Positions 22,486 to 42,314 of a DNA stretch of 64,000 bases are shown piece after piece. Location: positions 160,001 through 224,000 of the forward strand of contig CAWCPV010000003.1 in assembly GCA_963797555.1 (NCBI GenBank), written 5' to 3'. Every line of letters starts with the position of its first letter. The stretch's first letter is position 1. The position numbers were made by a program, and so were the translations under genes. The stretch is from an uncultured Gammaproteobacteria bacterium. GTDB taxonomy: Bacteria; Pseudomonadota; Gammaproteobacteria; CAWCPV01. The notes under the pieces are model-generated. The model was given only the letters and a program-made list of their open reading frames with translations. It had not been told where the DNA came from and ran no database searches.

Positions 22486-22724
22486 TGCGATCCACCCCTG
22501 CCGCAGGCGCGCGGGAGAGGTCGGCCGCACGGTCCACTTTTTGCCGCTGTCGGCCTTCGAGTTGACCGTGATGGCCGGAACACCGTCGACGTAGGTCTCG
22601 CCCTCGCTGGCTGCGGTACGAACCGCCAATGGGGTCTCTGGTGTACACGAGCCAATCGGGTGGCGCCCTGCGGCGTCGAGTATTAACATACGCACCACTT
22701 CGCAACACACCGAAGGAAATACTC

Positions 22725-25559
22725 ATGCATACGAAGATGCCGAGGCTCGCGGCGATAGCCATCACCGTGGTCATTTCGATGGGAGCCAGGCCAGGCATGG
22801 CTCAGGAGAAGCCCGCCATCGGCGAGATCAGGGCGATCGCCGAGGAGGCATATCTCTATGGCTTCCCGATGATTGTCGGGTACGACGTCCTGTACAAGTA
22901 TTTCATCGACCGCGACTCGGGGCAGTTCAAGGCGCCGATCAATCAGATCCACAACGAGGCGCGCGTATTCACGCCCAAGGACACGGGGATCAGCACACCC
23001 AACAGCGACACGCCCTATTCGATGGCGCTGCTGGACCTGCGCCCCGAGCCCATGGTGCTGTGCATGCCCGAGATCGAGAAGGCGCGCTACTACGACGTGC
23101 AGCTCGTCGATCTCTATACCAACAACTACGGGTACATGGGCAGCCGCACCACCGGCAACGGTGCCGGCTGCTACCTGGTCTCCGGTCCCGACTGGCAAGG
23201 GGAAGCGCCGAAGGGCATCTCCAAGTCCTTCCGCAGCGAGACCCAGTTCAGCCTGGTGATCTACCGTACCCAGCTCTTCGACCCGGCCGACATGGACAAC
23301 GTCAGGAAGGTCCAGGCCGGCTACAAGATCGAGCCCCTGTCGGCCTTCCTGGGCCAGCCCGCGCTCCCCGCCGCGCCGGCCATCGATTGGCCGAAGTTCG
23401 AGCAGTCGGCCTTCACCACCCGCTTCCCCGAGTATCTGGACTTTCTGCTGCAGTTCTGTCCGCCCGTCGGCACCGCCAAGGTGGAGAAGCCGCTGCGGGA
23501 GCGATTCGCCAAGATCGGCATCGGCCCGGGCGAGAAGGCCCCGCACAAGGCGCTGCCGCCCGAGGTGAAGGCGGCGCTCGGGGCGGGGGTGAAGGCGGCG
23601 TTCGCGAGGATCGGGAAGACGGCCGAGAGCGTCGGCACCAACGTCAACGGCTGGCACATCGGCGCCGCCGCGGGGAGCCGCGATTTCTACAAGGGCGACT
23701 GGGCGCTGCGTGCCGCCGCCGCGAAGCTCGGGATCTACGGCAACAGCGAGGCCGAGGCCGTCTATCCCTTCACCCGTCATGATGCGAACGGCATCGTGCT
23801 CGACGGAGCCAAGCACACCTACCAGATGACCTTCCCAGCCGGACAGCTCCCCCCGGTGAACGCCTTCTGGTCGATCACCATGTACGACGGACGCACCCAG
23901 CTTCTCGTCGAGAACCCGATCCACCGCTATCTCATCAACTCGCCCATGCGGCCGGAGCTGAAAAAGAACGCCGACGGCTCGCTCACCGTTTACATCCAGA
24001 AAGACTCGCCCGGCAAGGACAAGGAATCCAACTGGCTGCCGGCGCCGGACGGCCCGATGTTCATCGTCATGCGCCTCTACTGGCCGAAGACGGAGCCGCC
24101 CTCGGTCTACCCGCTCGGCAAGGGGACCTGGAAACCGCCCGCCCTGGTGCCGGTGCGCAACCTCAATGCCCTGGACGTGAAGCGCTTCGGTGACAAGTCG
24201 CTCGAGAACTTCATCCGCACCGATACGCGCTATGGCCACGACGGCCTGTTCCAGGGCCCGCGCGGCTGGGGCTACTGGAACTATCTCGAGTATCCGAGGC
24301 CGATCCAGAACCCCAACCTCTGGCCGGACATGCAGTCGACCTACTTCATCGGCGCCCTAGCGCTGCCGGCCGGGAGCACTCTGACGTTCAACTATACCTA
24401 TCCGCGCGCCCGCTACCTCCAGTTCGCGCTCTACAAAGCCGAGCATGGCACCTTCGTTTCCGTCGGCGAGGCGTTGGAGGGGCCGGACTTCGAGCCGGAC
24501 CCGGGCTCGACCAACCCCTTCCGGGTCGGCGCCGACCGGCTCACCGACAAGCGCAACTTCACGCTCCGCATCGTGGCCCAGAACGCGCCGGCGGACCCGA
24601 AACGCCGCGAGCCAAACACGCTCTACGCGGGGAGCGACGGCGGCGAGCTGATGTTCGTCAACCGCGAGTACCTCTCCGACCAGGGCAGCGACGGCGCCGG
24701 CTGGGGCCCGGCGTCCTCGCCGTCCGAGGGGCCGGGACTGCCGACCTACACGGGCACGCTCGCCGACGGGACGAAGCTCTCGGCGGAGGAAGTGGTCACG
24801 CGGTTCGGCCGGCCCATGCCGGCGCCCAAACCGCCCGTCACCGCCGAGCAGTGGGAAATGATCGTGCACGCGAAGGACAACGATCCCACGCTCGACCCTG
24901 CCACGACGCCCGCGCGCAAGGATCCCAAGTGGGAGAAGTATTGGAACATCAAGTATTCCATCCTCGGCGCGTTCAAGACGCCGGAGGAACGCGCGAAGAT
25001 TCCGTACGCTACAGCCATGGATGGCGGCGGCGATCCGGAGACGCAGTACATGCGCCTCTTTCTCTCGCGCAAGTTCGGCCCCGTGTACGTCATGCACGGC
25101 AAGATGCCGACCTTCCCCAACACCTACGCCGGCACGGGCGGCAAGGGCCTGGAGATCATGCCCGCGGCCCAGACTCAGTACTGGTCATTGGTGAGCTGCG
25201 AGGCCATGCCCTCCGGGCAGATCGTCGATGCGCTCAACGACATGCAGGTGCCGCTCGACAAGGACGGCAACTACACGATCGTGTACACCCGCAAGGAGGA
25301 CCGGCCGAAGAACGCGACCGACGAGAACGGCATCGCCTGGATCGAGTGGTCGCCGCGCGGCGAAGGCATTGACGGTCCTAAGAACCGACCCGACTTCGGC
25401 ATGCTCATCCTCCGCATCATGGCCAACAACCCAACGTGGAAGGAACGCCCCGACAACGTGATCAAGCCCGGCATGGAGGAGGCCGTCATGGGTCCCTATT
25501 ACCCGCGCGGCTACTACACCACCAAGGCGGAATTCGAGGCGGAAGGGCCACAAATGTAG
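22725..25559 (+). CDS. exported DUF1254/DUF1214 protein fused to an extra ~450-aa C-terminal domain
   Basis: AEEAYLYGFP, TPNSDTPYS, PPVNAFWSITMYD, SNWLPAP, MRLYWP; uninterrupted frame continues through a domain paralogous to 35900-36872. Confidence 0.85.
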   Translation: MHTKMPRLAAIAITVVISMGARPGMAQEKPAIGEIRAIAEEAYLYGFPMIVGYDVLYKYFIDRDSGQFKAPINQIHNEARVFTPKDTGISTPNSDTPYSMALLDLRPEPMVLCMPEIEKARYYDVQLVDLYTNNYGYMGSRTTGNGAGCYLVSGPDWQGEAPKGISKSFRSETQFSLVIYRTQLFDPADMDNVRKVQAGYKIEPLSAFLGQPALPAAPAIDWPKFEQSAFTTRFPEYLDFLLQFCPPVGTAKVEKPLRERFAKIGIGPGEKAPHKALPPEVKAALGAGVKAAFARIGKTAESVGTNVNGWHIGAAAGSRDFYKGDWALRAAAAKLGIYGNSEAEAVYPFTRHDANGIVLDGAKHTYQMTFPAGQLPPVNAFWSITMYDGRTQLLVENPIHRYLINSPMRPELKKNADGSLTVYIQKDSPGKDKESNWLPAPDGPMFIVMRLYWPKTEPPSVYPLGKGTWKPPALVPVRNLNALDVKRFGDKSLENFIRTDTRYGHDGLFQGPRGWGYWNYLEYPRPIQNPNLWPDMQSTYFIGALALPAGSTLTFNYTYPRARYLQFALYKAEHGTFVSVGEALEGPDFEPDPGSTNPFRVGADRLTDKRNFTLRIVAQNAPADPKRREPNTLYAGSDGGELMFVNREYLSDQGSDGAGWGPASSPSEGPGLPTYTGTLADGTKLSAEEVVTRFGRPMPAPKPPVTAEQWEMIVHAKDNDPTLDPATTPARKDPKWEKYWNIKYSILGAFKTPEERAKIPYATAMDGGGDPETQYMRLFLSRKFGPVYVMHGKMPTFPNTYAGTGGKGLEIMPAAQTQYWSLVSCEAMPSGQIVDALNDMQVPLDKDGNYTIVYTRKEDRPKNATDENGIAWIEWSPRGEGIDGPKNRPDFGMLILRIMANNPTWKERPDNVIKPGMEEAVMGPYYPRGYYTTKAEFEAEGPQM

Positions 25560-25561
25560 CT

Positions 25562-25631: not shown

Positions 25632-25737
25632 CGCTCTACACAACAAAGGCGGAGCCCGGGGCGATCGGCCGGATCCCGAGGGCGCACCAGCCGTTCAACG
25701 CCAACAACTTTCTTGCGAGCACGAGAGGAGTAAGGAC

Positions 25738-27363
25738 ATGAAAAAATCCACAGTCATTACGGCGGTGGCGGGGGCGGTGGTCTTCATCGCACTGATCGTT
25801 GCGTATCGCCTGCTCGGGCCGCTCATCGGGGCCAAGGTCGAGGAGCAGGTTGCCAAGATCGGCCTGACGCCGAACCAGGTTGCCGCACACGGCCCGCTAC
25901 CGGGTGATGTGAGCCTCTACGCGAAGGAGCTGGCCTGCCAGCGGAAGATCCCGACGCCAGGCTACTACTCCTCGATCAACGGCGCCGAGCTCGCTGACGG
26001 GGAACGCAGTGGCGTCTATCCGTGTGCAACCTTCACGGGCTCGTTCGACGGCCCCAATCAAGTCTATGCCTGGCGCAGCCAGGACGACTTTCATGGGACA
26101 TCGTTCATCAACAACCGCGCGCCTGGGGAGCTTTACCTAACGGGGGGCGATCTGCCCCCGATCAGCGGCCCCGTCCCGCCCGGGCCCTACGTCGCCAAGG
26201 CCGACGCGACAAGCGGCAAGGAGATCTGGCGCACGTATCTCGACAATGCCAACGCTTCCGGCCATTGGATCGCCGTGCTGAACCTCAACATCCTTCCCAA
26301 CGGCAACGTCGTCGTCGCCTGGGCCAACCGGGTCGCGCTGCTGAACGGCGATACAGGAGTGATCCTGGCGGCCAATACCCTGCCGACGGGTGATGCGCCC
26401 ATCGCGAACACGAGCTTCAAGCACGTGACCGTTGCGCCAGACGGCACGATCTTCCTGAAAGATCAGACGCGGCCCATCGGTGAGACCGGACAGGGAAGCT
26501 TCGCGATGATCAGGGGTCTGCAAAATGGATTGAAGCAACCCAGCTCGATCATCGTTGCTGTCGACCCCAATACGCTTCAAGTACTCGACAGTATCGAGAT
26601 GCCGGAGCCGTCGAGCGTGCCGCACAGCATCACGATGTTCGAGGGCAAGATCGCAATCTATCCGGTCGCCCACGTCCACGCATTCCGCTACTTCTGGGAT
26701 CCGACGACCAAGAAGCTGTCACAGGACAAGTCATGGGTCGTCTCCTACCTGCGTCCCGGCCAAAGCGACGGCACCGCGCCGAGCATCATGGGTGACTGGA
26801 TCGTGATCCAGAACAACGGCGCAGGCAGCAAGGTCACGGCATCCAGTGTCGTCGCGATCAACCAGAAGGATCCCACAAGGATCACGACAGTCCTGCCATT
26901 CGGCCCCCTCAAGAAAGGTGAATGGAGCTTCGCGCCGCCCAAGAATGGCAGCGACGCGGAGAATAATATGGTCTATTCGCAAGACATGGGGACCGGCAAG
27001 GTCGCCGGCATCAAGCTGGATCCGGTGACCGGCCAGATGAAGACCGTGTTTGTCGTGAACGACAAGACCACCTGCCTCGTTGCGCTCATCGGACCGAAGG
27101 ACAAGCGCGTGATGCTGACCTCGAACATGCACCATGATCTTCCCCTCGAACCAGACATGCTGGCGCTGGGGACAGGCTCGTATAAGGAGCAGGTCCGGTG
27201 GCGCGATGCCGCGACCGGACGACTCATCGCCGAGTCGGACCTGTTCGAGCCAATGGCAGTCAACTCCCTTGTCACGCCCGGCTTCGGCGGCCGGGTCTAC
27301 TTTCCGACCGTGAAGGGCTTCTACGTGCTGCAGGCGCTGCCGAAGCCCGCAGCAGGCAAGTAG
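25738..27363 (+). CDS. uncharacterised membrane-anchored protein, probable beta-propeller, tandem paralogue 1
   Basis: 541-aa ORF, RBS, N-terminal hydrophobic anchor, DATSGKEIWRT and WRDAATGRLIA blade-like motifs; collinear with the next two genes. Confidence 0.85.
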   Translation: MKKSTVITAVAGAVVFIALIVAYRLLGPLIGAKVEEQVAKIGLTPNQVAAHGPLPGDVSLYAKELACQRKIPTPGYYSSINGAELADGERSGVYPCATFTGSFDGPNQVYAWRSQDDFHGTSFINNRAPGELYLTGGDLPPISGPVPPGPYVAKADATSGKEIWRTYLDNANASGHWIAVLNLNILPNGNVVVAWANRVALLNGDTGVILAANTLPTGDAPIANTSFKHVTVAPDGTIFLKDQTRPIGETGQGSFAMIRGLQNGLKQPSSIIVAVDPNTLQVLDSIEMPEPSSVPHSITMFEGKIAIYPVAHVHAFRYFWDPTTKKLSQDKSWVVSYLRPGQSDGTAPSIMGDWIVIQNNGAGSKVTASSVVAINQKDPTRITTVLPFGPLKKGEWSFAPPKNGSDAENNMVYSQDMGTGKVAGIKLDPVTGQMKTVFVVNDKTTCLVALIGPKDKRVMLTSNMHHDLPLEPDMLALGTGSYKEQVRWRDAATGRLIAESDLFEPMAVNSLVTPGFGGRVYFPTVKGFYVLQALPKPAAGK

Positions 27364-27396
27364 CCGCGCGATCAAGGCAACGCATGGAGGAATGAC

Positions 27397-29031
27397 ATGA
27401 AGAAATCGTCGGTCTTCGCGTGGATAGGGCTTGCTCTCGTCGTCGTGCTGGCGGTCATCGTCTACCGCCTCGGCGGCACCTTGATCGGTGGAAAGGTCGA
27501 GCAGCACGTCGCGAAGATCGGCCTGACGCCGAACCAGGTCGCCGCCCACGGCCCGCTGCCCGGCGAGGTGAGCCTCTACGCGACGGAGCTCGCCTGCCAG
27601 CACAAGATCCCGACGCCGGGCTACTACTCGTCGCTGAACGGCGCGGAAATCTCCGACAGCGAGCGGAGCGGCGTGTTCCCCTGTGCCACGTTCCTCGGCT
27701 CGATGGACGGCCCCAACCAGGTGTACGCCTGGCGGAGCCGCGACGACTACCAGGGCATCTCGTACATCAACAACCGCAAGCCGGGCGAGCTCTACATCGT
27801 CGGCGGCGAGTACCCGACCCTGGACGATCCCGTTCCCGCGGGGCCGTATATCGCCAAGGCGGACGCGACCACCGGCAGGCAGATCTGGCGCACCTACCTC
27901 GACAACGCGAACGCATCGGGCTGGCTGATTGGTAACACCAACCTCAACATCCTCGACAACGGCAACCTCGCGCTCGCCTGGTCGAACCAGATCGTGCTCA
28001 TAGACGGCGACACGGGCCTCATCCTGAAGCACAACACGCTGCCCGGCGGCGAGGCGCCCACCTACACGGTGAACTTCAAGCACCTCACGATCGCGCCCGA
28101 CCGGACCTTGATCCTCAAGGACCAGACGCGTCCGGTCGGCTGCACGGAGCAGGGCACGATCGGCATCATCAAGTGCATCGAAAAGGGCTTGCAGCAGCCG
28201 AACTCGGTACTGGTGGCGGTCAACCCCGATACGCTCGAGGTGCTGGATATGTTCCAACTGCCCGAGCCGGCATCGTCGCCGCACGTCGTTGCGATGTACC
28301 AGGGGCGGATCGCGATCTACGTCGGCATGAACGAGAGCGCCCGACGCTACTTCTGGGATCCGGCGACGAAGAAGCTGTCGGCCGACGAGTCGTGGGTGAT
28401 CTACCCGATGCAGAAGGGCCAGACCACCGCCACCGCGCCGACGATGATGGGCGACTGGGTCGCGTTCCAGCTCAACGGCGCCGGCAGCAGCGTCAAGGCG
28501 TCGAGCATCCTCGTCGCCGACACGCGCGACGCCAAGCGCATGAAGGTGGTGTTCCCCTTCGGCGAGCTCAAGCCCGGCGAGTGGAGCTTCGCGCCGCCGA
28601 AGTGCGGCGGCGATCCGGAGAACCACATGATCTACTCGGCCGACATGGGCGTCGGCAAGGTGGCCGGCATCAGGCTCGACCCGGACAGCGGCGAGCTGAA
28701 GACGATGTTCGTGGTCGACGACGCGACCACCACCTTCCAGCCGCTGATCGGCCCGAAGGACAAGCGCGTGCTGCTGCTGACGAACATGAAGCAGAACGTC
28801 GAGAAGGAACCGAGCAGGCTGGCGCTGTTCACCGGGAACTACAAGGAACAGCTCACCTGGCGCGACGCCGCCACCGGCAAGATCATCGCCGAATCCGACT
28901 TCTTCGAGGCGCTCACCATCAATTCGCTCACCCCGCCGGGCTTCGGCGGCCGGATCTACTTCCCGTCCGCGACAGGCAAGGGCTTCTACGTATTGCAGGT
29001 TCTCCCGAAGCCTGCTGCGGCCGGCAAGTAG
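27397..29031 (+). CDS. uncharacterised membrane-anchored protein, tandem paralogue 2
   Basis: 544-aa ORF, GGAGG RBS, shares GLTPNQVAAHGPLPG..ELACQ.KIPTPGYYSS and PGFGGR.YFP with its neighbours. Confidence 0.85.
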   Translation: MKKSSVFAWIGLALVVVLAVIVYRLGGTLIGGKVEQHVAKIGLTPNQVAAHGPLPGEVSLYATELACQHKIPTPGYYSSLNGAEISDSERSGVFPCATFLGSMDGPNQVYAWRSRDDYQGISYINNRKPGELYIVGGEYPTLDDPVPAGPYIAKADATTGRQIWRTYLDNANASGWLIGNTNLNILDNGNLALAWSNQIVLIDGDTGLILKHNTLPGGEAPTYTVNFKHLTIAPDRTLILKDQTRPVGCTEQGTIGIIKCIEKGLQQPNSVLVAVNPDTLEVLDMFQLPEPASSPHVVAMYQGRIAIYVGMNESARRYFWDPATKKLSADESWVIYPMQKGQTTATAPTMMGDWVAFQLNGAGSSVKASSILVADTRDAKRMKVVFPFGELKPGEWSFAPPKCGGDPENHMIYSADMGVGKVAGIRLDPDSGELKTMFVVDDATTTFQPLIGPKDKRVLLLTNMKQNVEKEPSRLALFTGNYKEQLTWRDAATGKIIAESDFFEALTINSLTPPGFGGRIYFPSATGKGFYVLQVLPKPAAAGK

Positions 29032-29064
29032 TCGCGCGATCCACTGAACCGAACAGGGAGTGAC

Positions 29065-30704
29065 ATGAAGAAATCCTCGATTCTCAAATGGGTAGGGTTG
29101 GCAATCGTCGTCGTGATCGCGATCGTCGTCTACCGCCTGCTGGGCGGGGTCATCGGCGCGAAGGTCGAGCAGCAGGTCGCCAAGGTCGGCCTGACCCCGA
29201 ACCAGGTCGCCGCCCACGGCCCGCTGCCCGGCGAGGTCGGTCTCTACGCGAAGGAGCTCGCCTGCCAGCAGAAGATCCCCACGCCGGGCTACTACTCCTC
29301 GCTCAACGGCGCGGAGATCTCCGACAGCCGAGCGCAGCGGGCTCTTCCCCTGCGCAACCTTCACCGGATCGATGGACGGCCCCAACAAGGTGCTACGCCT
29401 GGCGTAGCGCCGACGACTATCCGGGCATCTCCTACATGAACAACCGCAAGCCGGGCGAGCTCTACATCGTCGGCGGCGAGTATCCGACGCTCGAGGACCC
29501 GAACATGGTCGGGCCGTTCGTCGCCAAGGCCGACGCGACCACCGGCAAGCAGATCTGGCGCACTTACATCGACAACCTGAACGCCTCGGGCCACTGGATC
29601 GGCAACGCCAACCTCAACATCCTCGACAATGGCAACATCGCCTTCGCCTGGTCGAACCAGATCGTGCTCATCGACGGCGACACGGGCCTGATCCTGAAGC
29701 ACAACACCTTGCCTACCGGCGAAGCGCCCGCCGCCGACGTGAACTTCAAGCACCTCACGATCGCGCCGGACCGCACGCTCATCCTCAAGGACCAGACGCG
29801 GCCGACCGGCTGCAACCTGCAGGGCACGATGGCGATCGTCGTGTGCGCCGAAAAGGGCATGCCGCAGCCGAACTCGGTGCTGGTCGCGGTGAATCCCGAC
29901 ACGCTGGAGATCCTCGACCAGCTTGCGTTGCCCGAACCGTCGACCGTCCCGCACGCCATCACCATGTTCGAGGGCAAGATTGCCATCTACATCGGCATGA
30001 ACGAGAGCGCGCGGCGCGCTTTCTGGGACCCGGCGACGAAGAAGCTGTCGATGGACGAAACCTGGGTCCTTCACCCGATGCAGAAAGGCCAGACCAGCGC
30101 CACCGCGCCGAGCATCATCGGCGACTGGGTCGGCTTCCAGCTCAACGGCATCGGCAGCGAGACGATCTCGTCCAGCATCGTGGTCGCGAGCCAGAAGGAC
30201 GCGACGAAGATGAAGATCGTCTTCCCGTTCGGCGAGATCAAGAAGGGCGAATGGAGCTTCGCGCCGCCGAAGGCCGGTGCCGACCCCGAGAACAGCATGA
30301 TCTACTCGGCCGACGCGGGCCTGGGCAAAGTGGCCGGCATCAAGATCGACCAGGCCACCGGGGATCTCAAGGTGATGTTCGTGCTCGACGACGCCAGCAC
30401 CACCTTCCAGCCGCTGATCGGGCCGCCGGACAAGCGCGTGCTGCTGTTGACCAACATGAAGCAGAACGTCGAGAAGGAGCCGGCCAAGGCGGCGCTGTTC
30501 ACCGCCAACTACAAGGAGCAGCTCACCTGGCGCGACGCCGCTACAGGCAAGATCATCGCCCAGTCGGACTTCTTCGAGCCGCTGTCGATCAACGGCCTGA
30601 CGCCGCCGGGCTTCGGCGGCCGGATCTACTTCCCGACCGCGGTCGGCAAGGGCTTCTACGTGCTGCAGGTCCTGCCGAAGCCTTCGGCGGCGCCGGGCAA
30701 GTAG
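29065..30704 (+). CDS. uncharacterised membrane-anchored protein, tandem paralogue 3, frameshifts near 29330 and 29390
   Basis: N-terminus in ORF 29065..29439, remainder in ORF 29088..30704; aligns with paralogue 2. Confidence 0.8.
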
Positions 30705-30727
30705 CCGGGCGAACGATTCGCAGGAAC

Positions 30728-30883
30728 ATGGAAAGGCGCACCACCGAGTCCGACTTCTTCGATCCGATGACCTTCGGCTCGCTGCTCACACCGGGTTACG
30801 GCAACCGTGTGCACTTCTCGACCGGCAAGGGGTTCATCGTGCTGCAGATCAGGCCGAACCCTTCGTCGTTGTCAAGCAAGTAG
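30728..30883 (+). pseudogene. C-terminal relic of a fourth, more divergent paralogue
   Basis: ESDFFDPMTFGSLLTPGYGNRVHFSTGKGFIVLQ matches ESDFFEALTINSLTPPGFGGRIYFPSATGKGFYVLQ. Confidence 0.75.
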
Positions 30884-31080
30884 CGGAACGGCCCCGACTC
30901 AAGGCGAACTCACCACGTGTCACCCATGAGGATCGATCGTGCTCGACTCGCCGGAGGGGCGAGCGACTCGTCAAGAGGCCAACGCGCGCCGGTACACGGG
31001 CGCCTGGCGCCGTGATGCGTCGAGCGCAAAACCGCGCCAAACGTCGGCGAAGTCGGAATGTATGCATACGCGAGCGAGAA

Positions 31081-32025
31081 ATGCTGATCGTGGGTGGGGG
31101 CACTAGATCGGCCTTGGCCTGCGCCCGCCGACTGCTCATCGGATTGGCCTTGGTGCTCGGCTCAGCGAGCGCTGCCGCGCAGGATCTCGAGCCAAGGCAA
31201 TACTCGAACACACCGATCGGCCTCAACTTCCTGCTCGGGGGTTACACCTACACGGAAGGCGGCGTGGCCGTCGATCCGACGGTGCCCCTGACGAACGCTC
31301 ACGTCGAGGTGAACGGCGCGACGCTCGCCTACGCGCGCTCGCTGGACATATTGGGCAAGTCCGCCAAATTCAACGTCGTGCTGCCCTATGCCTGGCTCTC
31401 GGGCAGCGCGGAGTTTGCCGGTCAACCTCACCAACGCGAGATTTCGGGGCTGGCTGACCCGAGATTTCACTTTTCCGTCAATTTCTATGGCGCCCCGGCA
31501 CTTTCGCTGAAAGACTACGCGGAATATCGACAGGACCTCATCCTCGGCGCGAGCGTGTACGTGTGGGCTCCGTGGGGCCAATATGACCCCAGCAAGCTCG
31601 TCAACCTCGGCACCAACCGCTGGGCGTTCAAGTCAGATCTCGGGCTGTCCAAGGCATTAGGCGCATGGAGGCTGGAGCTTGTCCCGGCCGCCACCTTTTT
31701 CTCCGACAACACGAATTTCCTCGATGGCCACACCCGCACGCAGGATCCGATCTACTCGGTGCAGGGCCACGTCATTTACGGCTTCCGATCCGGCGTGTGG
31801 GTCGCGCTCGACGGCACCTATTTTATGGGCGGACGCACGAGCGTCGATGGCGTACTCGATGACGACCGGGAGTCGAATTCGCGGGGTGGCCTGACTGTCG
31901 CCCTGCCGGTAGACCGCAGCAACTCGATCAAGCTTTACGCCAGCACTGGCGTATCGACGCGTACCGGCAGCAACTTCAATACCTTCGGCATCGCCTGGCA
32001 GTACCGTTGGGGCGGCGGGTATTGA
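31081..32025 (+). CDS. outer-membrane beta-barrel transporter (Phenol_MetA_deg-like)
   Basis: Signal peptide, QDLEPRQYSNTPIGLNF, GQYDPSKLVNLGTNRW, C-terminal WQYRWGGGY. Confidence 0.8.
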   Translation: MLIVGGGTRSALACARRLLIGLALVLGSASAAAQDLEPRQYSNTPIGLNFLLGGYTYTEGGVAVDPTVPLTNAHVEVNGATLAYARSLDILGKSAKFNVVLPYAWLSGSAEFAGQPHQREISGLADPRFHFSVNFYGAPALSLKDYAEYRQDLILGASVYVWAPWGQYDPSKLVNLGTNRWAFKSDLGLSKALGAWRLELVPAATFFSDNTNFLDGHTRTQDPIYSVQGHVIYGFRSGVWVALDGTYFMGGRTSVDGVLDDDRESNSRGGLTVALPVDRSNSIKLYASTGVSTRTGSNFNTFGIAWQYRWGGGY

Positions 32026-32067
32026 CTGCGAGACTCCATGAGCAAAATGCGTATACAGAACCGGAGG

Positions 32068-32345
32068 TGGACGCGACGCCTTCCAGCCGCTGATCGGGCC
32101 AAAGGACAAGCGCGTGCTGCTCCTCGCGAACGCCAAAAAGAATGTGCAGAAGGAACCGATCAAGCTCGCCCTCTCCGCCCAACCCCGGCGCGATCAGCGA
32201 CCTGGGTGCCAGAGGTTCGAAGAAGTCCGACTCCGCACTGGTCCGGCCGGTTGCCGCGTCGCATCAGGTCACCTGATCTTCATAGTTAGCGGTGTATACT
32301 TCCCGGCCGGCGAGGGCATCATCGTGCGTCAAGTCGTGCGAAGCC
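32068..32345 (+). pseudogene. degraded relic of a fifth paralogue of the tandem family
   Basis: FQPLIGPKDKRVLLLANAKKNVQKEPIKLAL and VYFPAGEGIIVRQV match paralogue C-termini. Confidence 0.7.
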
Positions 32346-32370
32346 TTCGCCGGAGGTCGCTCATGACACG

Positions 32371-32710: not shown

Positions 32711-35230
32711 ATGAGAGCAGCACCAAAGCCAGTCATAACCTCGGCGCTCTGGGGGGCCGCGCTCGTATGCGCGGCCGCCTCGTGCCCCGCGACGGAGATA
32801 CAAACCACCGGGGTCCTGGGTTCGCCCAGCGCCACCACCACCATCAGCGGGAAACAACTTCCGCCGCCCGATCCGAAATTCGGCGGGGTGATCAAGGAGA
32901 AGGCCTCCGAGTCGAAGCCGTGGTGGCCGCCGCGCGTCGTGCCGCCAAAGGGCGCGCCCAACGTGCTGCTCATCATGACCGACGATTGCGGGTTCGGCGC
33001 GCCGAGCACGTTCGGCGGCGTCGTCCCGACGCCGGCCCTGGATCGCATCGCGAAAGACGGGCTGCGCTACACGCAGTTTCACTCCACGTCGCTCTGCTCA
33101 CCGACGCGGGCCGCGCTGATCACCGGACGCAATCATCACGTCGGCCGGCTTTGGGGTCGTGGGCGAAGCGGCGACGGGGTTCCCGGGTTACGACTCCATC
33201 ATCCGGAAGGATGCCGGCACGATCGGCACCATCCTCAAGGAGAACGGGTACGCGACCTCGTGGTTCGGCAAGGACCACAACACGCCCTTCTACCAGGCGA
33301 GCCAGGCCGGACCGTTCGATCAATGGCCCACCGGGATGGGCTTCGATTATTTCTACGGCTTCGTCGGCGGCGACACCAGCCAGTGGGCAGCCGAACCTGT
33401 TCCGCAATACGACCGCCATCTATCCCTTCCAGGGAAATCCCGGCTGGAATCTGACCACGGCCATGGCCGACGACGCGATCCAGTACATGAAGCAGCTCAA
33501 GGAGGTCGCGCCCGACAAGCCGTTCTTCGTCTATTACGTGCCGGGCGGCACCCACGCGCCGCATCATCCGACGCCGGAGTGGATCAAGAAGATCAGCGAC
33601 CATGCACCTGTTCGACGAGCGGCTGGAACAAGACTGCGCGAGACCATCTTCGCCAACCAGAAGCGGCTCGGCATCATGCCCGCCGATGCCAAGCTGACGC
33701 CGTGGCCGAAGGAACTGCCGGAGTGGGATTCGCTCAGCTGGGACGAGAAGAAGCTCTTCATCAAGCAGGCCGACGTCTTCGGGGCCTACCTCGCGTACAC
33801 CGACCACGAGATCGGCCGGGTCATCCAGGCCGTCGAAGACATGGGCGAGCTCGACAACACCTTGATCATCTACATCAGCGGCGACAACGGCGCGAGCGCG
33901 GAGGGCATGCTCAACGGGACGCCGAACGAGTTCACCACCTTCAACGGCGTTACCGTGCCGGTCAAGGATCAGTTTCTCTGGTACGAGTTCTGGGGATCGG
34001 AACGGACCTTTCCGCACTATGCGGCCGGTTGGGCCTGGGCGATGGACACGCCGTTCAAGTGGATGAAGCAGGTGGCGTCGCACTTCGGCGGGACGGCCCA
34101 GGGCATGTGCATGTCGTGGCCCGGCCACATCAAGGACGTGGGCGGCATCCGCCGCCAGTTCCACCACGTCATCGACATCGTGCCGACCATCCTCGAAGCG
34201 ACCGGCATCTCGGCGCCCGATACGATCAATGGCATCAAGCAGCGCCCGATCGAAGGCGTGAGCATGGTGTACACGTGGGACAAGGCGAACGCCGACGCGC
34301 CCACCCGGCACACCACGCAATACTTCGAGATGCTCGGCAACCGCGCCATCTATCACGACGGCTGGGTGGCGGCGACGACCCCGGTGACCCTCCCGTGGGA
34401 GCTGAACACCGCCCCGCCGCCGGACGTGATCACCGGGTACAAGTGGGAGCTCTACAACATCAACGAGGATGTCACCGAGTCCAACGACCTCGCCGCCAAG
34501 ATGCCGGACAAGCTCAAGGAGATGCAGGACGTCTTCTACGCCGAGGCGAAGAAGTACGACGTGCTGCCGCTCGACAACTCGACGCTCGCGCGCTTCCTCA
34601 CGCCGCGTCCGAGCGCCACGGCGGGACGGAACAGTCTTCACGTATTCGGGCGAGTTGACCGGCGTGCCGGCCAGCGCCGCCCCGAACATCCTGGCAGAAG
34701 GTCTTACACCATCAGGCGGAGGTCGAGATTCCCGAGGGCGGCGCGGAAGGCATGATCGTCACCGAGGGCGGGCGCTTCGGCGGCTACGGCCTGTTCCTGA
34801 GCAAAGGCGAGTTCGGAGTCGGCCGGGGCAAGGTGGTGTTTCTCTACAACCTGCTCGATCTCAAGCGCACGATCTGGGAAGGGCCGGAGCTGAGCGCCGG
34901 CAAGCACACCATCGTGTTCGACTTCAAGTTCGACGGCCCCGGTTTCGGCAAGGGCGGCACGGGCGTGCTCTCCGTGGACGGCAAGGAAGTGGCCAAGAAG
35001 TCCATGGACCACACCACCCCCATCATGTTCCCCGAAGACGAAGACTTCGACGTCGGGCATGGACACCCGCACCCCCGTTGCGCTCATCGAGTATCGCTAC
35101 GATTGCCCGTTCAAGTTCACGGGCAAGATCGACAAGCTGACCTTCAACCTCGGTCCGGTCGCAGTACACGGAAGCGGAGCGCAAGCAGCTTCCGGCCATT
35201 GCCGACCGGGTCGCCCGCGCGAAGGACTAG
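32711..35230 (+). CDS. arylsulfatase (Cys-type), about six frameshifts
   Basis: [70 protein letters not shown] spread over several frames. Confidence 0.85.
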
Positions 35231-35235
35231 CTCGC

Positions 35236-35607
35236 GTGACGGCCACCACGAAGAAACTCCTCGCCCTGGCCGCCGTAGCGGAGGCGGCCACGGGCCTGGC
35301 CTTGCTGGTCTATCCGCCAATTGTCGCCCACCTGTTGCTGGGCGTCGCCAACCTCGTCGGTATCGGCGTGGTGATCGCCCGCGTGACCGGCATCGCCTTG
35401 ATCGGGTTGGGCGTGAGCTGCTGGCCCGGCAGCACCGCGCTCGCTGGGATGTTGACCTACGGCGTGCTGTTGACCCTGTACCTGGTGCGCCTCGGTCTTG
35501 GCGGCATATTCGTGGGGGTTCTGCTGTGGCCGGCCGTGGCGTTGCACGTCGTCCTGACCGCGTCGCTGGCGTGGGCCTGGTTCCGCGACCGCCCAAGTGC
35601 CAGTTGA
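35236..35607 (+). CDS. small hypothetical membrane protein (about 4 TM)
   Basis: Hydrophobic ORF KKLLALAAVAEAATGLALLVYP... starting 5 bp after the sulfatase stop. Confidence 0.65.
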   Translation: MTATTKKLLALAAVAEAATGLALLVYPPIVAHLLLGVANLVGIGVVIARVTGIALIGLGVSCWPGSTALAGMLTYGVLLTLYLVRLGLGGIFVGVLLWPAVALHVVLTASLAWAWFRDRPSAS

Positions 35608-35683
35608 TTCTCACCATACCGGAGATCTTGCATGAGAAGGCTATCGGTGTTCCGTGGTGTCGTCGCGATCCTGGCGCCTCATC

Positions 35684-35900
35684 TTAAGCCGACTGTGGAC
35701 ACCTTGTGGCCCGCCAACTCCTGGAAGATCTGTCCAGGTGGCGGCGCAGCGCCCCGAAGATCTGCTTCTTCCTGCGCTTCGGGATGAATACCACATGGTA
35801 CTTGCAGTCCCACTTCGTGTGGCTCGGACTCTGGTGCTCTTTCATGGTGAATCCCCTTCTCTTGGCGGAGATTGGAGATTCACGACGACCGTCGTATAGG
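35684..35900 (-). mobile_element. tnpA: IS200/IS605 tnpA 5' remnant
   Basis: MKEHQSPSHTKWDCKYHVVFIPKRRKKQIFG from ATG at 35845; HUH motif region missing. Confidence 0.85.
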
Positions 35901-36872
35901 TCAAACCTCGGTGAGTCCCGTGCGAAGAACACCGTCTACATCGGCAAGGAAGGCATGACGATTTTCGGCGGCTTCCGCATGTATGTCTCGGACAAAGGCT
36001 ACGACGGTGCGGGTTGGGGGCCTGCGGATGGACCGTCTTCCGACGGCCCTGGCGTCACCTACGAAGCCAGGCTTGCCGACGGCACTCAGCTTTCGCAAGA
36101 GGAAGTCGCCAAGCGCTTCGGCAAGCTGATGGCGGATGCGCCGCCACCGGTCAGCGCCGACCAGTGGTACAAGCTGGTCGACAACCCGGCCAACAAACCC
36201 TGTATGACACCGGCCACCGCGCCGGCCTGCCCGAATTCGCAGTTCTTCCTGTTCACAGGCATGAAGGACGCTATCGAGGGCGCCTTCATGAAGCCCGAGG
36301 AGCGGGCGAACCTGCCTAAGCCGAAAAGTGTGGGCGGCGGCGCCAATGCCTCGACCGCGTACCTGGTGAACTATACGTCGCGCAAGTTCGGCCCCCTCTA
36401 CGTGTTCCGGGCGAAGTTGCCGACCTTCCCGAACACCTGGGCCAACGCCAAGATCATGCCCGACGGGGAGGTGCAATACTGGTCGGTCGCGACCATGGCG
36501 TCGTTCACCAACGGCAGTCTGTGGGACGGCGTCTTTGACATGCAGGTGCCGGTGGACAAGGACGGCTACTACACCATCGTCGTCAGCCTGCCCGAAGACC
36601 GGCCGAAGAACGCGACCGCCGAGAACGGCGTGGCCTGGATCGACTGGGGTCCTAGCGAAGGCTTGGGGGACCCGCGAAACCGCAAGGATTGGGGCGCGCT
36701 CCTGATGCGCTTCATGGTCCCGCAAAAGGACTGGCAGTACAGCCCGCTGAAGGCGCGCAATCCGGGTAAGCTGGCCTCTGTCATGGGGCCTTATTACCCA
36801 CGCGGCTATTACACCACCAAGGCGCAGTTCGAGGCCGAAGGCATAAAGAACCCAGTGCCGGGCACCAAGTAA
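35901..36872 (+). pseudogene. 5'-truncated paralogue of the C-terminal domain of 22725..25559
   Basis: YVSDKGYDGAGWGP, SRKFGPLYV, PTFPNT, DMQVPVDKDG, DRPKNATAENG, VMGPYYPRGYYTTKAQFEAEG all match; 5' end abuts the IS200 relic. Confidence 0.8.
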
Positions 36873-40892: not shown

Positions 40893-42314
40893 ATGTTTCC
40901 AGCGACAAATCGAACCACGGCGGGGACCATTGAAATGATAAGACCCACAGAACGAAACGTTGGCTCTAGGCTCACCGAGGCCATCAGGAGAGCAAAACGC
41001 GTCCCAATCCCCGGGCGGCGGCGCCCGCTCACCCTCGTCGCGATATGCGCCGGCGCTCTCGCTGCCGGACAGGCCAGCGCCGGCGGCGTGATCGCCTACG
41101 AGGTCGGCACCGCCAACGTCGGATTGGCCTCCGCGGGCTACAACGCGCGCGCCCAGGACGCCTCGACCGTGTTCACCAACCCCGCAGGCATGACACGCCT
41201 TCCGGGCACGCAGATCCTGGGCTCGGGGCAGGTACTCTGGGCCAACACCCAGTTCTCCATCGACTCGGGAACCTCACCTCGCCTGGGCAGCAACGACGGC
41301 GGCCACGTGACCGGGTCGAACGGATGGTTCCTGGGCGGCGGCGGCTTCTTGAGCTACAGCATGTCGCCCGACCTCAAGCTCGGGTTCGCGCTCACCGGCA
41401 ACTTCGGCGCCCCCCTGGAGTACGACTACAACTGGGTGGGGCGCTACTACGTCCAGGAAACGACACTGCTCGGGATCTCGTTGCTGCCCTCCATCGCCTA
41501 CAAGGTCAACGACAAGCTCTCCCTGGGGGCGAGCCTGAACGCCATGTACGGCAAGTACACCAACCAGGTGGCGATAAACAACGTCGACCCGAGGTTCGGC
41601 GACGGTCGGCTGAAACTCGACGACAACACCTGGGGCTGGGGCGGCAACCTGGGTCTGCTCTACGAGATCGACGACCGCACTCGGCTCGGCCTCACCTGGA
41701 ACTCGCAGGTCAACCTCGACTTCAATGCGCCGGCCCAGTTCTCGAACCTCGCGCCGGGTCTCAGCGCGCTCCTGAACAGCCGCGGGCTGCTGAATTCCAA
41801 CCTAAAGGTCGGGATCAAAGTTCCGCAGCAGGTAATGGCCAGCACGTTCGCACAGGTGAACGACCGCTGGGCGGTGCTCGGCAGCGTCGGCTGGCAACAG
41901 TGGTCGAAGTTCGGCCAGGTCGAGATCGGCATCGACAACTCCACCAACCCCACCAGCACCAGCACCAACCTGAACTTCAAGGACACCTGGCACCTCGCGG
42001 CCGGCGCCCAGTACCGCCTGAGCGACCCGTGGCTCCTCAACTTCGGCATCGCCTACGACTCGGCATTCCAGTCGGGTAACGTCTCCCCGCTGCTGCCGGT
42101 GAACTCGGCGTGGCGTTTCGGGGTGGGCGGCGAGAACCACGCCAGCAAGACCTTCGACTGGGGCGCCGTGTTCGAGTATCTGTACGGCGGAACACTCGAC
42201 ACCAACTTGCACAGCACGCTGCCGGTCGCGCTCGGCGGGCGCGGCAACGTCGTCGGCTCGTACAACACCACCGGGACCTTGTTCCTCGGCGTTTACGGCA
42301 ACTGGAAGTTCTAG
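40893..42314 (+). CDS. OmpP1/FadL/TodX family outer-membrane transporter
   Basis: GLASAG..AQDASTVFTNPAGMTRL hatch motif, PSIAYKVNDKLSLG, FKDTWH, terminal WKF; start uncertain. Confidence 0.9.
   Translation: MFPATNRTTAGTIEMIRPTERNVGSRLTEAIRRAKRVPIPGRRRPLTLVAICAGALAAGQASAGGVIAYEVGTANVGLASAGYNARAQDASTVFTNPAGMTRLPGTQILGSGQVLWANTQFSIDSGTSPRLGSNDGGHVTGSNGWFLGGGGFLSYSMSPDLKLGFALTGNFGAPLEYDYNWVGRYYVQETTLLGISLLPSIAYKVNDKLSLGASLNAMYGKYTNQVAINNVDPRFGDGRLKLDDNTWGWGGNLGLLYEIDDRTRLGLTWNSQVNLDFNAPAQFSNLAPGLSALLNSRGLLNSNLKVGIKVPQQVMASTFAQVNDRWAVLGSVGWQQWSKFGQVEIGIDNSTNPTSTSTNLNFKDTWHLAAGAQYRLSDPWLLNFGIAYDSAFQSGNVSPLLPVNSAWRFGVGGENHASKTFDWGAVFEYLYGGTLDTNLHSTLPVALGGRGNVVGSYNTTGTLFLGVYGNWKF

What the first reader, a model, noticed from the sequence alone, without database searches (positions are those of the whole stretch)
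25738..30883. Tandem expansion of an unrecognised membrane-anchored beta-propeller-like family (three genes plus two relics)
Seen: three collinear ~540-aa paralogues separated by 33-bp spacers that both contain CGCGCGATC and end TGAC, plus C-terminal relics at 30728-30883 and 32068-32345. The post-anchor segment (GLTPNQVAAHGPLPG..ELACQ.KIPTPGYYSS) is almost invariant while internal loops vary: GETGQGSFAMIRGL vs GCTEQGTIGIIKCI vs GCNLQGTMAIVVCA, so paralogue 1 lacks a Cys pair. Inference: birth-and-death diversification of a periplasm-facing enzyme or binding protein with a conserved assembly stalk and variable specificity. I cannot assign it to a characterised family.
Basis: partly seen in the sequence, partly recalled or inferred. 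Interest (0 to 1): 0.75.

Follow-up and report, generated by a model that had tools for sequence, protein, structure and literature searches.

The report
Unnamed periplasmic beta-propeller gene array
A row of related genes for a well-conserved but unstudied propeller-shaped envelope protein always sits beside the same equally unstudied partner gene in bacteria from many phyla, so it marks a two-gene module of unknown function rather than a local oddity.

Summary
The array is real, but it holds two intact genes (25738-27363, 27397-29031). The third copy (29065-30704) needs two +1 frameshifts to be read. There are also two C-terminal relics, one with an inverted 120-bp piece.

An AlphaFold2 model (pLDDT 90.9) shows a beta-propeller, eight-bladed by my count. 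It resembles PQQ-dehydrogenase and BamB-type propellers only in fold (10-13% identity). Pfam, NCBIfam and PDB sequence searches assign no family.

The family is large (553 clusters at 50% identity) and spans about eight phyla.

The main new result concerns the neighbour. In 44 of 51 loci from other genomes, a ~950-aa gene lies directly upstream. It encodes DUF1254-DUF1214 plus a second half whose fold also matches DUF1254/DUF1214 structures. Two natural fusion proteins join each kind of half to a propeller.

The window's copies are old, distinct lineages. An AU test rejects copies 2 and 3 as sisters (p = 4e-7). Copy 1 belongs to a conserved subtype that lacks one Cys pair. Only the first ~110 codons look homogenised between copies.

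The transmembrane anchor and stalk helix are the most variable part, not a conserved stalk.

Function is unknown. My best guess is a periplasmic two-protein complex acting on an imported or envelope amphiphile. The link to sulfatases is weak (8 of 51 loci).

The parts
22629..25559 (+). Partner gene (976-aa ORF; a likely signal peptide starts at Met33, by eye). Its N-half is DUF1254 plus DUF1214. Its C-half (residues ~490-976) is a second, divergent DUF1254/DUF1214-like fold.
   Evidence: Pfam gives DUF1254 at 6.7e-44 and DUF1214 at 2.1e-38. The PDB sequence match is 3u07 at 4e-37. The C-half model has pLDDT 71.2, and its best Foldseek matches are 6ans, 3u07, 2p3y and 3vb9. The gene lies directly upstream of a propeller gene in 44 of 51 loci.
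25738..27363 (+). Paralogue 1, intact, 541 aa. It is the Cys-less-loop subtype (GETGQGSFAMIRG; TTCLVALIGP).
   Evidence: In the tree its propeller body sits on a long branch (0.41-0.44), while its first 110 residues resemble the local copies.
27364..27396 (+). 33-bp spacer 1 with CGCGCGATC and a GGAGGAATGAC ribosome-binding stretch.
27397..29031 (+). Paralogue 2, intact, 544 aa, Cys-loop subtype. This is the copy that was modelled.
   Evidence: It is 86% identical to a Candidatus Competibacter gene, L004_10001.
29032..29064 (+). 33-bp spacer 2 with CGCGCGATC.
29065..30704 (+). Paralogue 3, Cys-loop subtype, interrupted by two +1 frameshifts near 29329 and 29393.
   Evidence: Read through with X at the breaks, it is 89% identical to L011_14019, and its end branch (0.052) is shorter than its sister's (0.093).
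30728..30883 (+). Relic A: a 51-codon ORF holding only the last ~47 residues of a propeller copy.
31012..32025 (+). Outer-membrane channel gene of the MetA-pathway/phenol-degradation type, lying between the two relics.
   Evidence: Pfam Phenol_MetA_deg at 1.9e-18.
32021..32338 (+). Relic B: a C-terminal piece of another copy with stop codons. Its middle, 32175-32294, is inverted in place.
32948..35687 (+). Large sulfatase gene broken into at least five frame pieces.
   Evidence: ORF 34752-35687 matches the C-terminal part of a sulfatase region in L004 and L023.
35913..36842 (+). Truncated second copy of the partner's C-half, 49.5% identical to residues 658-973 of the partner. It has no DUF1254/DUF1214 N-half.
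37564..39996 (+). Intact 810-aa sulfatase.
   Evidence: Pfam Sulfatase at 1.1e-57.
40893..42314 (+). FadL/TodX-type outer-membrane transporter for hydrophobic compounds.
   Evidence: Pfam Toluene_X at 1e-59.

Best explanation
Shown:
- The region is a decaying tandem array: two intact genes, one frameshifted copy and two relics.
- The genes encode a periplasm-facing beta-propeller (eight blades by my count) that belongs to a large family with no name.
- That family is the constant genomic partner of one upstream gene, a protein made of two DUF1254/DUF1214-type halves.
- The window's copies are old, separate lineages (Cys-loop and Cys-less types). They are not fresh duplicates. Their first ~110 codons, and possibly the spacers, appear to have been homogenised within this genome.

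Inferred mechanism:
- The partner protein is exported to the periplasm. The propeller is held at the outer face of the inner membrane by an uncleaved anchor in this window, or is soluble in relatives that have cleavable signal peptides.
- The two proteins form a complex (my odds about 0.7).
- One face of the propeller carries family-wide invariant charged residues: E84, D87 and R90 in the N-terminal cap segment, and K241, R245, R317, D330, N360, D406, D416 and R457 in the blades. This face binds or converts a small amphiphilic or hydrophobic molecule. My odds are about 0.45 for an enzyme rather than a scaffold, and about 0.35 for an amphiphilic substrate.
- The substrate would reach the periplasm through FadL- or MetA-type channels, or through Pqi or LolA-like carriers, under AraC-type control.
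- Extra paralogues would be alternative propeller subunits for the same partner.
For: Fold:
- AlphaFold2 on a 49-row alignment gives pLDDT 90.9 and pTM 0.86.
- All listed Foldseek PDB matches are propellers (PQQ dehydrogenases, BamB, Rv3035, tetrathionate hydrolase, YncE, designed Cake proteins) with TM-score by query 0.39-0.53 and 10-14% identity.
- A profile search of PDB sequences gives only a weak match to sorbose dehydrogenase (E = 1.1e-4 over about 80 residues).

Family size and spread:
- 646 proteins with E <= 1e-3 among 7998 scored candidates (capped). The 120 listed are all at least 71% identical and almost all are called hypothetical.
- 553 clusters at 50% identity with E <= 1e-3.
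- 51 genome loci from eight labelled phyla.

Partner:
- The DUF1254-DUF1214-plus-C-half gene ends less than 700 bp upstream of a propeller gene in 44 of 51 loci.
- The other seven loci are: L024, L043 and L051, cut by a contig end; L041, with 487 bp upstream; L046, with 1.9 kb upstream and no match; L048, with a 48%-identical C-half directly upstream; and L009, with a sulfatase gene in between.
- In L049 the partner's stop overlaps the propeller's GTG start.
- P0265 (886 aa) is a DUF1254-DUF1214-propeller fusion.
- P0238 (917 aa) is a C-half-like domain fused to a propeller, with no transmembrane segment between them.

Periplasmic location:
- Positions 249/260 are both Cys in 48 rows and both non-Cys in 16 of 64 rows, never mixed.
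- Positions 67/96 are both Cys in 53 rows and both non-Cys in 11 of 64 rows.

Old lineages and selection:
- Tree, and an AU test with p = 4.2e-7 against copies 2 and 3 as sisters over residues 111 to the end.
- dN/dS against the nearest genes is 0.19-0.20.

5' homogenisation:
- Over codons 1-110, copies 2 and 3 differ by dN 0.114 and dS 0.404. The values against their nearest genes are 0.183/0.87 and 0.19/0.528.
- Over the rest of the gene the order is reversed: 0.154/0.461 between copies against 0.063/0.338 and 0.04/0.307.
- The 110-column tree does not reject the window copies as one clade (p = 0.31 and 0.54).

Neighbours within 10 kb, out of 51 loci: AraC 15, FadL 14, MscS-type 13, DUF2092 11, sulfatase 8, PqiA/PqiB 7, MetA-type channel 5.
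Against: - No experiment and no cofactor or active-site motif supports catalysis.
- I could not read model coordinates. That the invariant residues lie on one face is inferred from strand order only.
- No neighbour other than the partner is found in more than 15 of 51 loci, so the substrate guess is weak.
- Contexts in cultured carriers are varied and include mobile-element genes.
- Codon-level identity gives only a faint signal of recent gene conversion. The share of identical codons among identical residues is 0.69-0.71 in codons 31-90 against 0.60 overall for copies 1 and 2. The 5' similarity could therefore reflect shared constraint rather than conversion.
- The two fusion proteins are metagenomic predictions whose DNA I could not inspect.
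- Most loci (35 of 51, hand count) hold a single propeller copy, so multiple subunits are not required.
Confidence: 0.5

Rival explanations
1. The propeller is a pure scaffold, like BamB in the BAM machine or Rv3035 with FecB in mycobacteria. It has no catalysis. It tethers or organises the DUF1254/DUF1214 protein, and perhaps other envelope proteins, at the inner membrane.
For: - BamB chains and Rv3035 are among the best structural matches, with TM-score by target 0.62-0.70.
- Atlas feature neighbours are clusters named as BamB family.
- The anchor plus a soluble partner fits a tethering role.
- For Rv3035 I saw only the abstract in a search listing: Rv3035 and FecB form a periplasmic complex needed for envelope integrity (PMC13041763).
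Against: - Many relatives have cleavable signal peptides instead of an anchor, so tethering is not general (judged by eye).
- Single-chain fusions already join the two proteins without any anchor.
- Identity is very high for a scaffold, 50-75% across phyla, and about a dozen charged residues stay invariant down to about 27% identity.
Confidence: 0.3
2. It is a divergent PQQ-dependent (quinoprotein) dehydrogenase, and the paralogues are isoenzymes.
For: - The top Foldseek matches are PQQ alcohol and sorbose dehydrogenases.
- A profile search matches sorbose dehydrogenase at E = 1.1e-4.
- Pfam PQQ_2 gives weak matches (E 0.014-0.066).
- One public record calls a relative 'Pyrrolo-quinoline quinone'.
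Against: - PQQ_2 scores 13.3-15.5 bits against a cut-off of 27.6 for all three window copies, and PF01011 is not listed for any of them at E <= 0.1.
- Only 2 of 41 distant relatives reach the PQQ_2 cut-off.
- TM-scores against quinoproteins are 0.39-0.53 at 10-13% identity, no better than against non-enzymes.
- No adjacent Cys-Cys pair is present (that this pair is a hallmark is recalled, not tested).
- My ORF and Pfam screens of the flanks turned up no cytochrome c or PQQ-synthesis gene. These screens covered selected ORFs only.
Confidence: 0.08
3. This is the first reader's reading: a local birth-and-death expansion giving variable specificity for sulfate esters, working with the neighbouring sulfatases.
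For: - Relics and a broken copy show gene death.
- Copy number varies from 1 to 3 among loci.
- Sulfatase genes are interleaved with propeller genes in L009 and L011 and are present in the window.
Against: - The copies are old lineages shared with other genomes.
- Sulfatase is found within 10 kb in only 8 of 51 loci.
- One of the window's two sulfatases is itself broken.
- There is no match to arylsulfotransferase or sulfatase families.
Confidence: 0.1

Closest known systems
BamB (lipoprotein of the beta-barrel assembly machine)
   Same: A propeller of the PQQ_2 type located in the periplasm. Structural matches have TM-score by target 0.62-0.70.
   Different: BamB is about 390 aa with a lipobox (recalled). 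These proteins are about 540 aa and have no Cys in the first 60 residues. They carry an extra conserved 65-residue N-terminal segment and stay below the PQQ_2 cut-off. Their genomic partner is a DUF1254/DUF1214 protein, not BamA.
Rv3035 propeller with FecB (mycobacterial periplasmic complex)
   Same: A periplasmic propeller that works through a stable complex with one soluble partner. TM-score is 0.51-0.53 by query and 0.68-0.70 by target. I saw only the abstract in a listing.
   Different: Identity is 10% and the partner is unrelated. No sequence-level match was found.
PQQ-dependent alcohol and sorbose dehydrogenases
   Same: These give the best Foldseek E-values (2e-13 to 1e-11) and a weak profile match over one or two blades.
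   Different: The family models are not matched at their cut-offs. No Cys-Cys pair is present. No cytochrome or PQQ-synthesis context turned up in the ORFs I screened.
Tetrathionate hydrolase of Acidithiobacillus
   Same: A propeller enzyme without a cofactor. TM-score is 0.45-0.48 by query. That it is periplasmic and eight-bladed is recalled.
   Different: Identity is 13%, with no sequence match. There is no sulfur-oxidation context.
DUF1254/DUF1214 proteins (PDB 3u07, 2p3y, 3vb9) - the partner, not the propeller
   Same: The window's upstream gene matches both Pfam models. Its C-half matches the same fold.
   Different: The solved proteins are single modules of about 440-490 aa with no known function. 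Here two modules are fused into about 950 aa and paired with a propeller. A glycoside-hydrolase-like jelly-roll was only proposed by modelling in Malassezia (PMC4634964, passages seen).

Membership tests
PQQ-dependent dehydrogenases / PQQ repeat propellers (Pfam PF01011, PF13360) | Match to the family's profile models at the curated cut-off | tested here: not met
   PQQ_2 scores 13.3, 15.5 and 13.7 bits against a cut-off of 27.6. PF01011 is not listed at E <= 0.1. Only 2 of 41 distant relatives reach the cut-off.
PQQ-dependent dehydrogenases / PQQ repeat propellers (Pfam PF01011, PF13360) | Eight-bladed propeller fold | tested here: met
   The model has pLDDT 90.9 and matches propellers. The blade count of eight is my reading of the strand list and of seven xxDxxTGxxxW-like hairpins plus a closure, not a measured count.
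PQQ-dependent dehydrogenases / PQQ repeat propellers (Pfam PF01011, PF13360) | Adjacent Cys-Cys disulfide and PQQ/metal ligands (features recalled from memory) | tested here: inconclusive
   No adjacent Cys pair occurs in copies 1 or 2. The ligand residues cannot be aligned at 10-13% identity, and no coordinates were available.
BamB | Lipoprotein signal with lipobox Cys (recalled) | tested here: not met
   There is no Cys in the first 60 residues. A hydrophobic helix at residues 3-25 runs on into a longer helix to residue 40.
BamB | Part of the BamA machine | not testable with these tools
   No bamA or other bam gene appeared in my ORF and Pfam screens of the flanks, but these covered selected ORFs only. 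The interaction itself cannot be tested here.
Arylsulfotransferase propellers (considered because of the sulfatase neighbours; recalled) | Match to the Pfam arylsulfotransferase models | tested here: not met
   No such family is listed at E <= 0.1 for any copy.
Unnamed family defined here: propeller partner of DUF1254/DUF1214 proteins | Gene directly downstream of a DUF1254-DUF1214-plus-C-half gene | tested here: met
   In the window the partner ends at 25559 and copy 1 starts at 25738. The same order holds in 44 of 51 loci.
Unnamed family defined here: propeller partner of DUF1254/DUF1214 proteins | Conserved N-terminal segment (GPLPG ... TPGY ... AE..D..RSG..PCA.F) before the blades, and family-wide invariant W164, Y308, R317, D330, D406, R457 | tested here: met
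   These features are present in copies 1 and 2 and in the read-through of copy 3.
Unnamed family defined here: propeller partner of DUF1254/DUF1214 proteins | Physical complex with the partner | not testable with these tools
   The only support is genomic: adjacency and fusions.

The most novel reading that the evidence does not exclude
The propeller and the double DUF1254/DUF1214 protein together form a previously undescribed, horizontally mobile periplasmic enzyme system. It is found from methanotrophs and polyphosphate- or glycogen-accumulating sludge bacteria to Planctomycetota and Acidobacteriota. The propeller's conserved polar face is the active site, and paralogous propellers (Cys-loop and Cys-less) retune one shared partner to different amphiphilic substrates. 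This would give the first function to the DUF1254 and DUF1214 families.
Probability: 0.3. Interest if true: 0.65.

Novelty: new variant of a known kind. Interest (0 to 1): 0.45.

Why it matters
DUF1254 and DUF1214 are widespread families. Structures were solved years ago, but no function is known. Here they gain a constant partner, two natural fusions and a defined cellular compartment, which makes the pair directly testable. Cultured carriers exist: Methylomonas lenta, Methylomicrobium sp. wino1, Stappia indica, Bauldia litoralis, Falsiroseomonas oryzae and Maioricimonas sp.. The propeller family has no model in Pfam or NCBIfam, so it is currently annotated only as hypothetical. For this window alone the biology is modest: an old paralogue set that is partly decaying.

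Tried and rejected
- **Complex prediction.** I folded the partner's C-half (487 aa) with the propeller (residues 41-544). The result was no verdict (score 0.00 against a mark of 0.32). This is not evidence either way.
- **PDB sequence search with one sequence.** Nothing scored below E = 0.57.
- **NCBIfam.** No family for any copy or for the partner.
- **Atlas feature searches.** These gave only unnamed clusters or generic PQQ_2/BamB clusters.
- **Plasmid collection (tblastn).** No match.
- **Promoter and terminator scans of 22000-32600.** One promoter-like site against 1.5 expected, and eight terminator-like sites against 7.9 expected.
- **Literature.**
  - 'DUF1254' or 'DUF1214' found 12 papers, 10 of them listed.
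  - 'VPA0735', 'VPA0106', 'PF06742', 'PF06863', 'IPR010621' or 'IPR010679' found 8 papers.
  - From the titles, and from the passages I read in PMC4634964, PMC6710368 and PMC11840546, none describes the propeller or the gene pair. The other listed papers I judged by title only.
  - I ran no literature search aimed at the propeller itself.
- **Recent gene conversion at the 5' end.** Codon identity gives only a weak signal. I therefore keep 'homogenised' as an inference resting.
- **Whole partner fused to the propeller in L049.** Rejected: the long ORF is an alternative frame, and the two genes overlap by GTGA.
- **Greedy longest-ORF annotation of high-GC loci.** This picked antisense ORFs, so I used only four lower-GC loci for Pfam.
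- **Automatic copy count.** It merged adjacent copies, so the counts I report were made by hand.
- **AU test for all three window copies as one clade over the propeller body.** It did not finish.


Full report
**1. What is in the sequence**

ORF listing and translation confirm two intact paralogues on the + strand: 25738-27363 (541 aa) and 27397-29031 (544 aa).

The third copy is not one open gene.
- The frame that starts at 29065 gives a normal N-terminus up to '...NGAEISDS' and then derails.
- The long ORF 29088-30704 gives nonsense for its first ~100 residues and family sequence afterwards.
- tblastn with copy 2 splits copy 3 into three pieces: frame 1 (29065-29385), frame 2 (29327-29392) and frame 3 (29382-30692).
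- Reading the DNA places one extra base near 29329 and another near 29393.

Both spacers are 33 bp, share CGCGCGATC and end in TGAC before ATG. The 9-mer occurs nowhere else on the + strand of the window.

Relic A (30728-30883) keeps only the last ~47 residues of a copy.

Relic B (32021-32338) keeps residues ~448-536 with stop codons. At the DNA level its middle 120 bp (32175-32294) lies inverted in place.

Both relics cover residues 495-536. They therefore come from two different former copies, so the genome once held at least five.

**2. Caution on broken genes**

Other genes in the window are also split between frames:
- the sulfatase at 32948-35133, in at least five pieces;
- PqiA and PqiB on the - strand at 9156-12048, in four and five pieces;
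- probably an MmeI-like restriction-modification gene at 13677-16702, seen as two overlapping ORFs.

By contrast, the partner gene, copies 1 and 2, the 810-aa sulfatase, FadL and the MscS-type gene are open.

Several loci from other assemblies also show split propeller copies: L013, L023, L027, L035, L042 and L048.

I cannot tell real pseudogenes from assembly errors. Copy 3 shows no sign of relaxed constraint. Its end branch is 0.052 against 0.093 for its sister. Its dN/dS against that sister is 0.19 overall and 0.13 after residue 110.

**3. Fold and family**

Pfam gives only sub-threshold PQQ_2 matches (13.3-15.5 bits, cut-off 27.6). NCBIfam gives nothing. A single-sequence search of PDB sequences gives nothing below E = 0.57.

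AlphaFold2 on a 49-row alignment gives a confident model with pLDDT 90.9 and pTM 0.86. Its parts are:
- a helix at residues 3-40, made of the hydrophobic anchor and a stalk helix;
- short helices at 45-69;
- about 30 strands.

I read the strands as eight blades closed by N- and C-terminal strands.

Foldseek against the PDB returns only propellers: PQQ dehydrogenases, BamB, Rv3035, tetrathionate hydrolase, YncE and designed Cake proteins. TM-scores by query are 0.39-0.53 at 10-14% identity.

A profile search of PDB sequences reaches sorbose dehydrogenase at E = 1.1e-4 over about 80 residues. Atlas feature neighbours are unnamed clusters or PQQ_2/BamB clusters.

It meets the criteria of none of its named families.

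**4. Size and spread of the family**

- The word-indexed search found 646 proteins with E <= 1e-3 among 7998 scored candidates (capped). The 120 listed are at least 71% identical, and nearly all are named 'hypothetical protein'.
- The exhaustive search of 50%-identity representatives found 553 clusters at E <= 1e-3, 341 at <= 1e-10 and 115 at <= 1e-30. These include full-length relatives at about 26-37% identity.
- A scan of one genome per species returned 51 loci. By the submitters' titles, the tree rows are labelled Pseudomonadota, Acidobacteriota, Verrucomicrobiota, Planctomycetota, Gemmatimonadota, Myxococcota, Ignavibacteriota and Nitrospirota.
- The tree does not follow these labels: Acidobacteriota needs 5 changes for 5 rows. 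This fits horizontal spread, although mis-binned contigs could contribute.

**5. The constant partner**

The upstream gene 22629-25559 carries DUF1254 and DUF1214 in residues 104-487, followed by about 490 further residues.

In 44 of 51 loci a close homologue of this whole gene ends less than 700 bp before a propeller gene. The seven exceptions are:
- L024, L043 and L051, cut by the contig end;
- L041, with 487 bp upstream;
- L046, with 1.9 kb upstream and no match;
- L048, where a 48%-identical C-half lies directly upstream;
- L009, where a sulfatase gene lies in between.

In L049 the partner's stop and the propeller's start overlap (GTGA).

I modelled the C-terminal half (pLDDT 71.2, pTM 0.69). 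Its best PDB matches are an uncharacterised Burkholderia protein (6ans) and the DUF1254/DUF1214 structures 3u07, 2p3y and 3vb9, with E from 2e-10 to 5e-6. The partner is therefore a tandem of two DUF1254/DUF1214-type modules.

Two distant relatives are single-chain fusions, each with a signal peptide and no internal transmembrane segment:
- P0265 (886 aa): DUF1254-DUF1214 followed by a propeller.
- P0238 (917 aa): a C-half-like domain (E = 1.5e-18 against partner residues 583-973) followed directly by a propeller.

I could not inspect their DNA.

**6. Other neighbours**

No other neighbour is general. Within 10 kb, out of 51 loci, I found:

| Neighbour | Loci (of 51) |
|---|---|
| AraC-type regulator | 15 |
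| FadL | 14 |
| MscS/MscK-type channel | 13 |
| Unnamed ~190-aa secreted protein | 12 |
| DUF2092 | 11 |
| Sulfatase | 8 |
| PqiA and PqiB | 7 each |
| MetA-type channel | 5 |

These counts come, with names confirmed by Pfam. In 14 loci the AraC gene forms one cluster lying a few kb upstream of the propeller gene.

In four carriers with lower-GC DNA (three cultured strains and one complete genome) the wider context is varied and includes transposase, integrase and relaxase genes.

The recurring theme is traffic of hydrophobic or amphiphilic molecules across the envelope. It is only a theme, not a rule.

**7. Are the paralogues a local expansion?**

No. I built a 64-row tree, leaving out:
- split and partial copies;
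- two rows (L045_4818, L048_1599) spoiled by my ORF extension.

Copy 3 was read through with X at the breaks. In this tree:
- copy 2 is sister to a Candidatus Competibacter gene (86% identity, support 99);
- copy 3 is sister to a betaproteobacterial gene (89% identity, support 98);
- copy 1 sits on a long branch (0.41) near a Cys-less group.

Over residues 111 to the end, the tree that holds copies 2 and 3 together is worse by 214.6 log-likelihood units, with p-AU = 4.2e-7.

A search with copy 1 shows it belongs to a conserved subtype. One protein is 88% identical, and about 13 more clusters are 70-76% identical over about 90% of the length. These share the loop G-x-x-G-Q/E-G-[SA]-[FA]-A-x-x-K/R-G without Cys, and TTCLVALIGP.

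Across the 64 rows the two Cys pairs covary without exception:
- 249/260: 48 rows both Cys, 16 rows both not;
- 67/96: 53 rows both Cys, 11 rows both not.

This argues for two disulfides and hence a periplasmic location. The Cys-less state is the only copy found in the fetched stretch in Planctomycetota and Nitrospirota loci. It is therefore an alternative form, not a defect.

Copy number by hand:
- three copies in 5 loci (L009, L010, L013, L015, L035);
- two copies in 11 loci;
- one copy in the remaining 35, some of which are cut by contig ends.

**8. The 'invariant post-anchor segment'**

Three-way identity is 0.80 for residues 41-106 against 0.44-0.63 for the blades.

Family-wide, however, this segment (entropy 0.85) is no more conserved than blades 1, 2 and 8 (0.69-0.85). 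The true anchor and stalk helix are the most variable parts (entropy 2.04 and 2.09).

The extra similarity inside the window seems to come from mosaic evolution.
- Over codons 1-110, copies 2 and 3 are closer to each other (dN 0.114, dS 0.404) than to their nearest genes elsewhere (0.183/0.87 and 0.19/0.528). Over the rest of the gene the reverse is true.
- In a tree of the first 110 columns, copy 1 has a short branch (0.11) next to gammaproteobacterial Cys-type genes. A clade of the window copies is not rejected (p = 0.31 for all three; p = 0.54 for copies 2 and 3, with a higher likelihood when held together).
- That tree has few columns and little resolution.
- Codon identity gives only a faint signal. 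I therefore call this old homogenisation or shared constraint, not recent conversion.

Most relatives of copy 1 begin with what looks like a cleavable signal peptide rather than an anchor (by eye). The membrane anchor is therefore not a family trait.

**9. Where variation falls**

The most variable propeller stretches are 141-148, 217-224, 258-265, 297-304, 309-316, 329-336, 376-383 and 468-475.

By strand order, roughly half of these are loops on the face that also carries the invariant K241/R245, N360 and D416. This is my inference from topology.

Entropy is 0.87 in strands and 1.06 in loops.

**10. Mechanism, with odds**

Shown:
- fold;
- likely compartment;
- partner gene;
- fusions;
- old paralogy;
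- purifying selection (dN/dS 0.13-0.34).

Inferred:
- The two proteins form a periplasmic complex (about 0.7).
- The propeller's conserved polar face is a ligand or active site rather than a docking surface only (about 0.45).
- The ligand is an amphiphile that arrives through FadL- or MetA-type channels or through Pqi or LolA-like carriers (about 0.35).
- Extra propellers are alternative subunits.
- A link to sulfate esters is possible but weak (about 0.1).

**11. Novelty**

The fold is known. The family has no model in Pfam or NCBIfam, and I found no description of it in the searches named under 'tried and rejected'. Its fixed pairing with a double DUF1254/DUF1214 protein is, as far as those searches go, not in print.

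I rate it a new variant of a known kind. It is of moderate interest as a well-defined target for finding a function, and of low interest as a peculiarity of this window.

Noticed in passing
window 32175-32294 (inside relic B, 32021-32338): A 120-bp piece of the relic lies inverted exactly in place. The flanking forward piece matches copy 2 nt 1337-1430, and the inverted piece matches nt 1553-1434. No inverted repeats at the breakpoints were looked for.
   Followed up: partly
window 9156-12048 (-), 13677-16702 (-), 32948-35133 (+), 29329 and 29393 (+): Frameshifts cluster in particular genes: PqiA, PqiB, an MmeI-like restriction-modification gene, one sulfatase and propeller copy 3. Neighbouring long genes are open. 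This means either many real pseudogenes or locally poor consensus. The stretch 8001-12000 has 70% G+C.
   Followed up: partly
window 35913-36842 (+), inside ORF 35706-36872: A truncated second copy of the partner's C-half (49.5% identity to partner residues 658-973) with no N-half. It lies between a broken and an intact sulfatase. The order resembles the L009 layout (sulfatase, partner, sulfatase, propellers), so it may be the remains of a second module.
   Followed up: partly
window 25562-25631 (+): A long nested hairpin lies directly after the partner gene's stop codon, with no T-tract. The 178-nt spacer folds at -69.3 kcal/mol, z = -2.0. It could be a transcript-stabilising or REP-like element.
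   Followed up: no
partner protein residues ~490-570 (window 24096-24335): The linker between the two halves of the partner is almost invariant across 25 sequences, yet it is modelled with pLDDT below 50 when the C-half is folded alone. It may fold only against another domain or protein.
   Followed up: no
L004 12117-13478, L006 5162-6433, L010 7840-9105, L042 8539-9132: Some loci carry an additional, divergent DUF1254/DUF1214 gene (29-37% identical to the N-half). In L004, L010 and L042 it lies between propeller copies.
   Followed up: no
proteins P0215 (986 aa), P0190 (618 aa), P0236 (614 aa), P0266 (693 aa): Distant propeller relatives carry other N-terminal extensions of 165-530 residues that match neither the partner nor, for the two scanned in that region, any Pfam family. 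P0190 begins with several hydrophobic segments.
   Followed up: no
window 21178-22485 (+): An unassigned 435-aa ORF with a lipoprotein-like signal (…LASAGC, by eye) lies just upstream of the partner gene. Homologues lie upstream of the module in L011 and L021 only.
   Followed up: no
L011 20078-21007 and 11 other loci: An unnamed secreted protein family of about 190 aa with no Pfam match recurs near the module in 12 of 51 loci. I found no copy in the window.
   Followed up: partly
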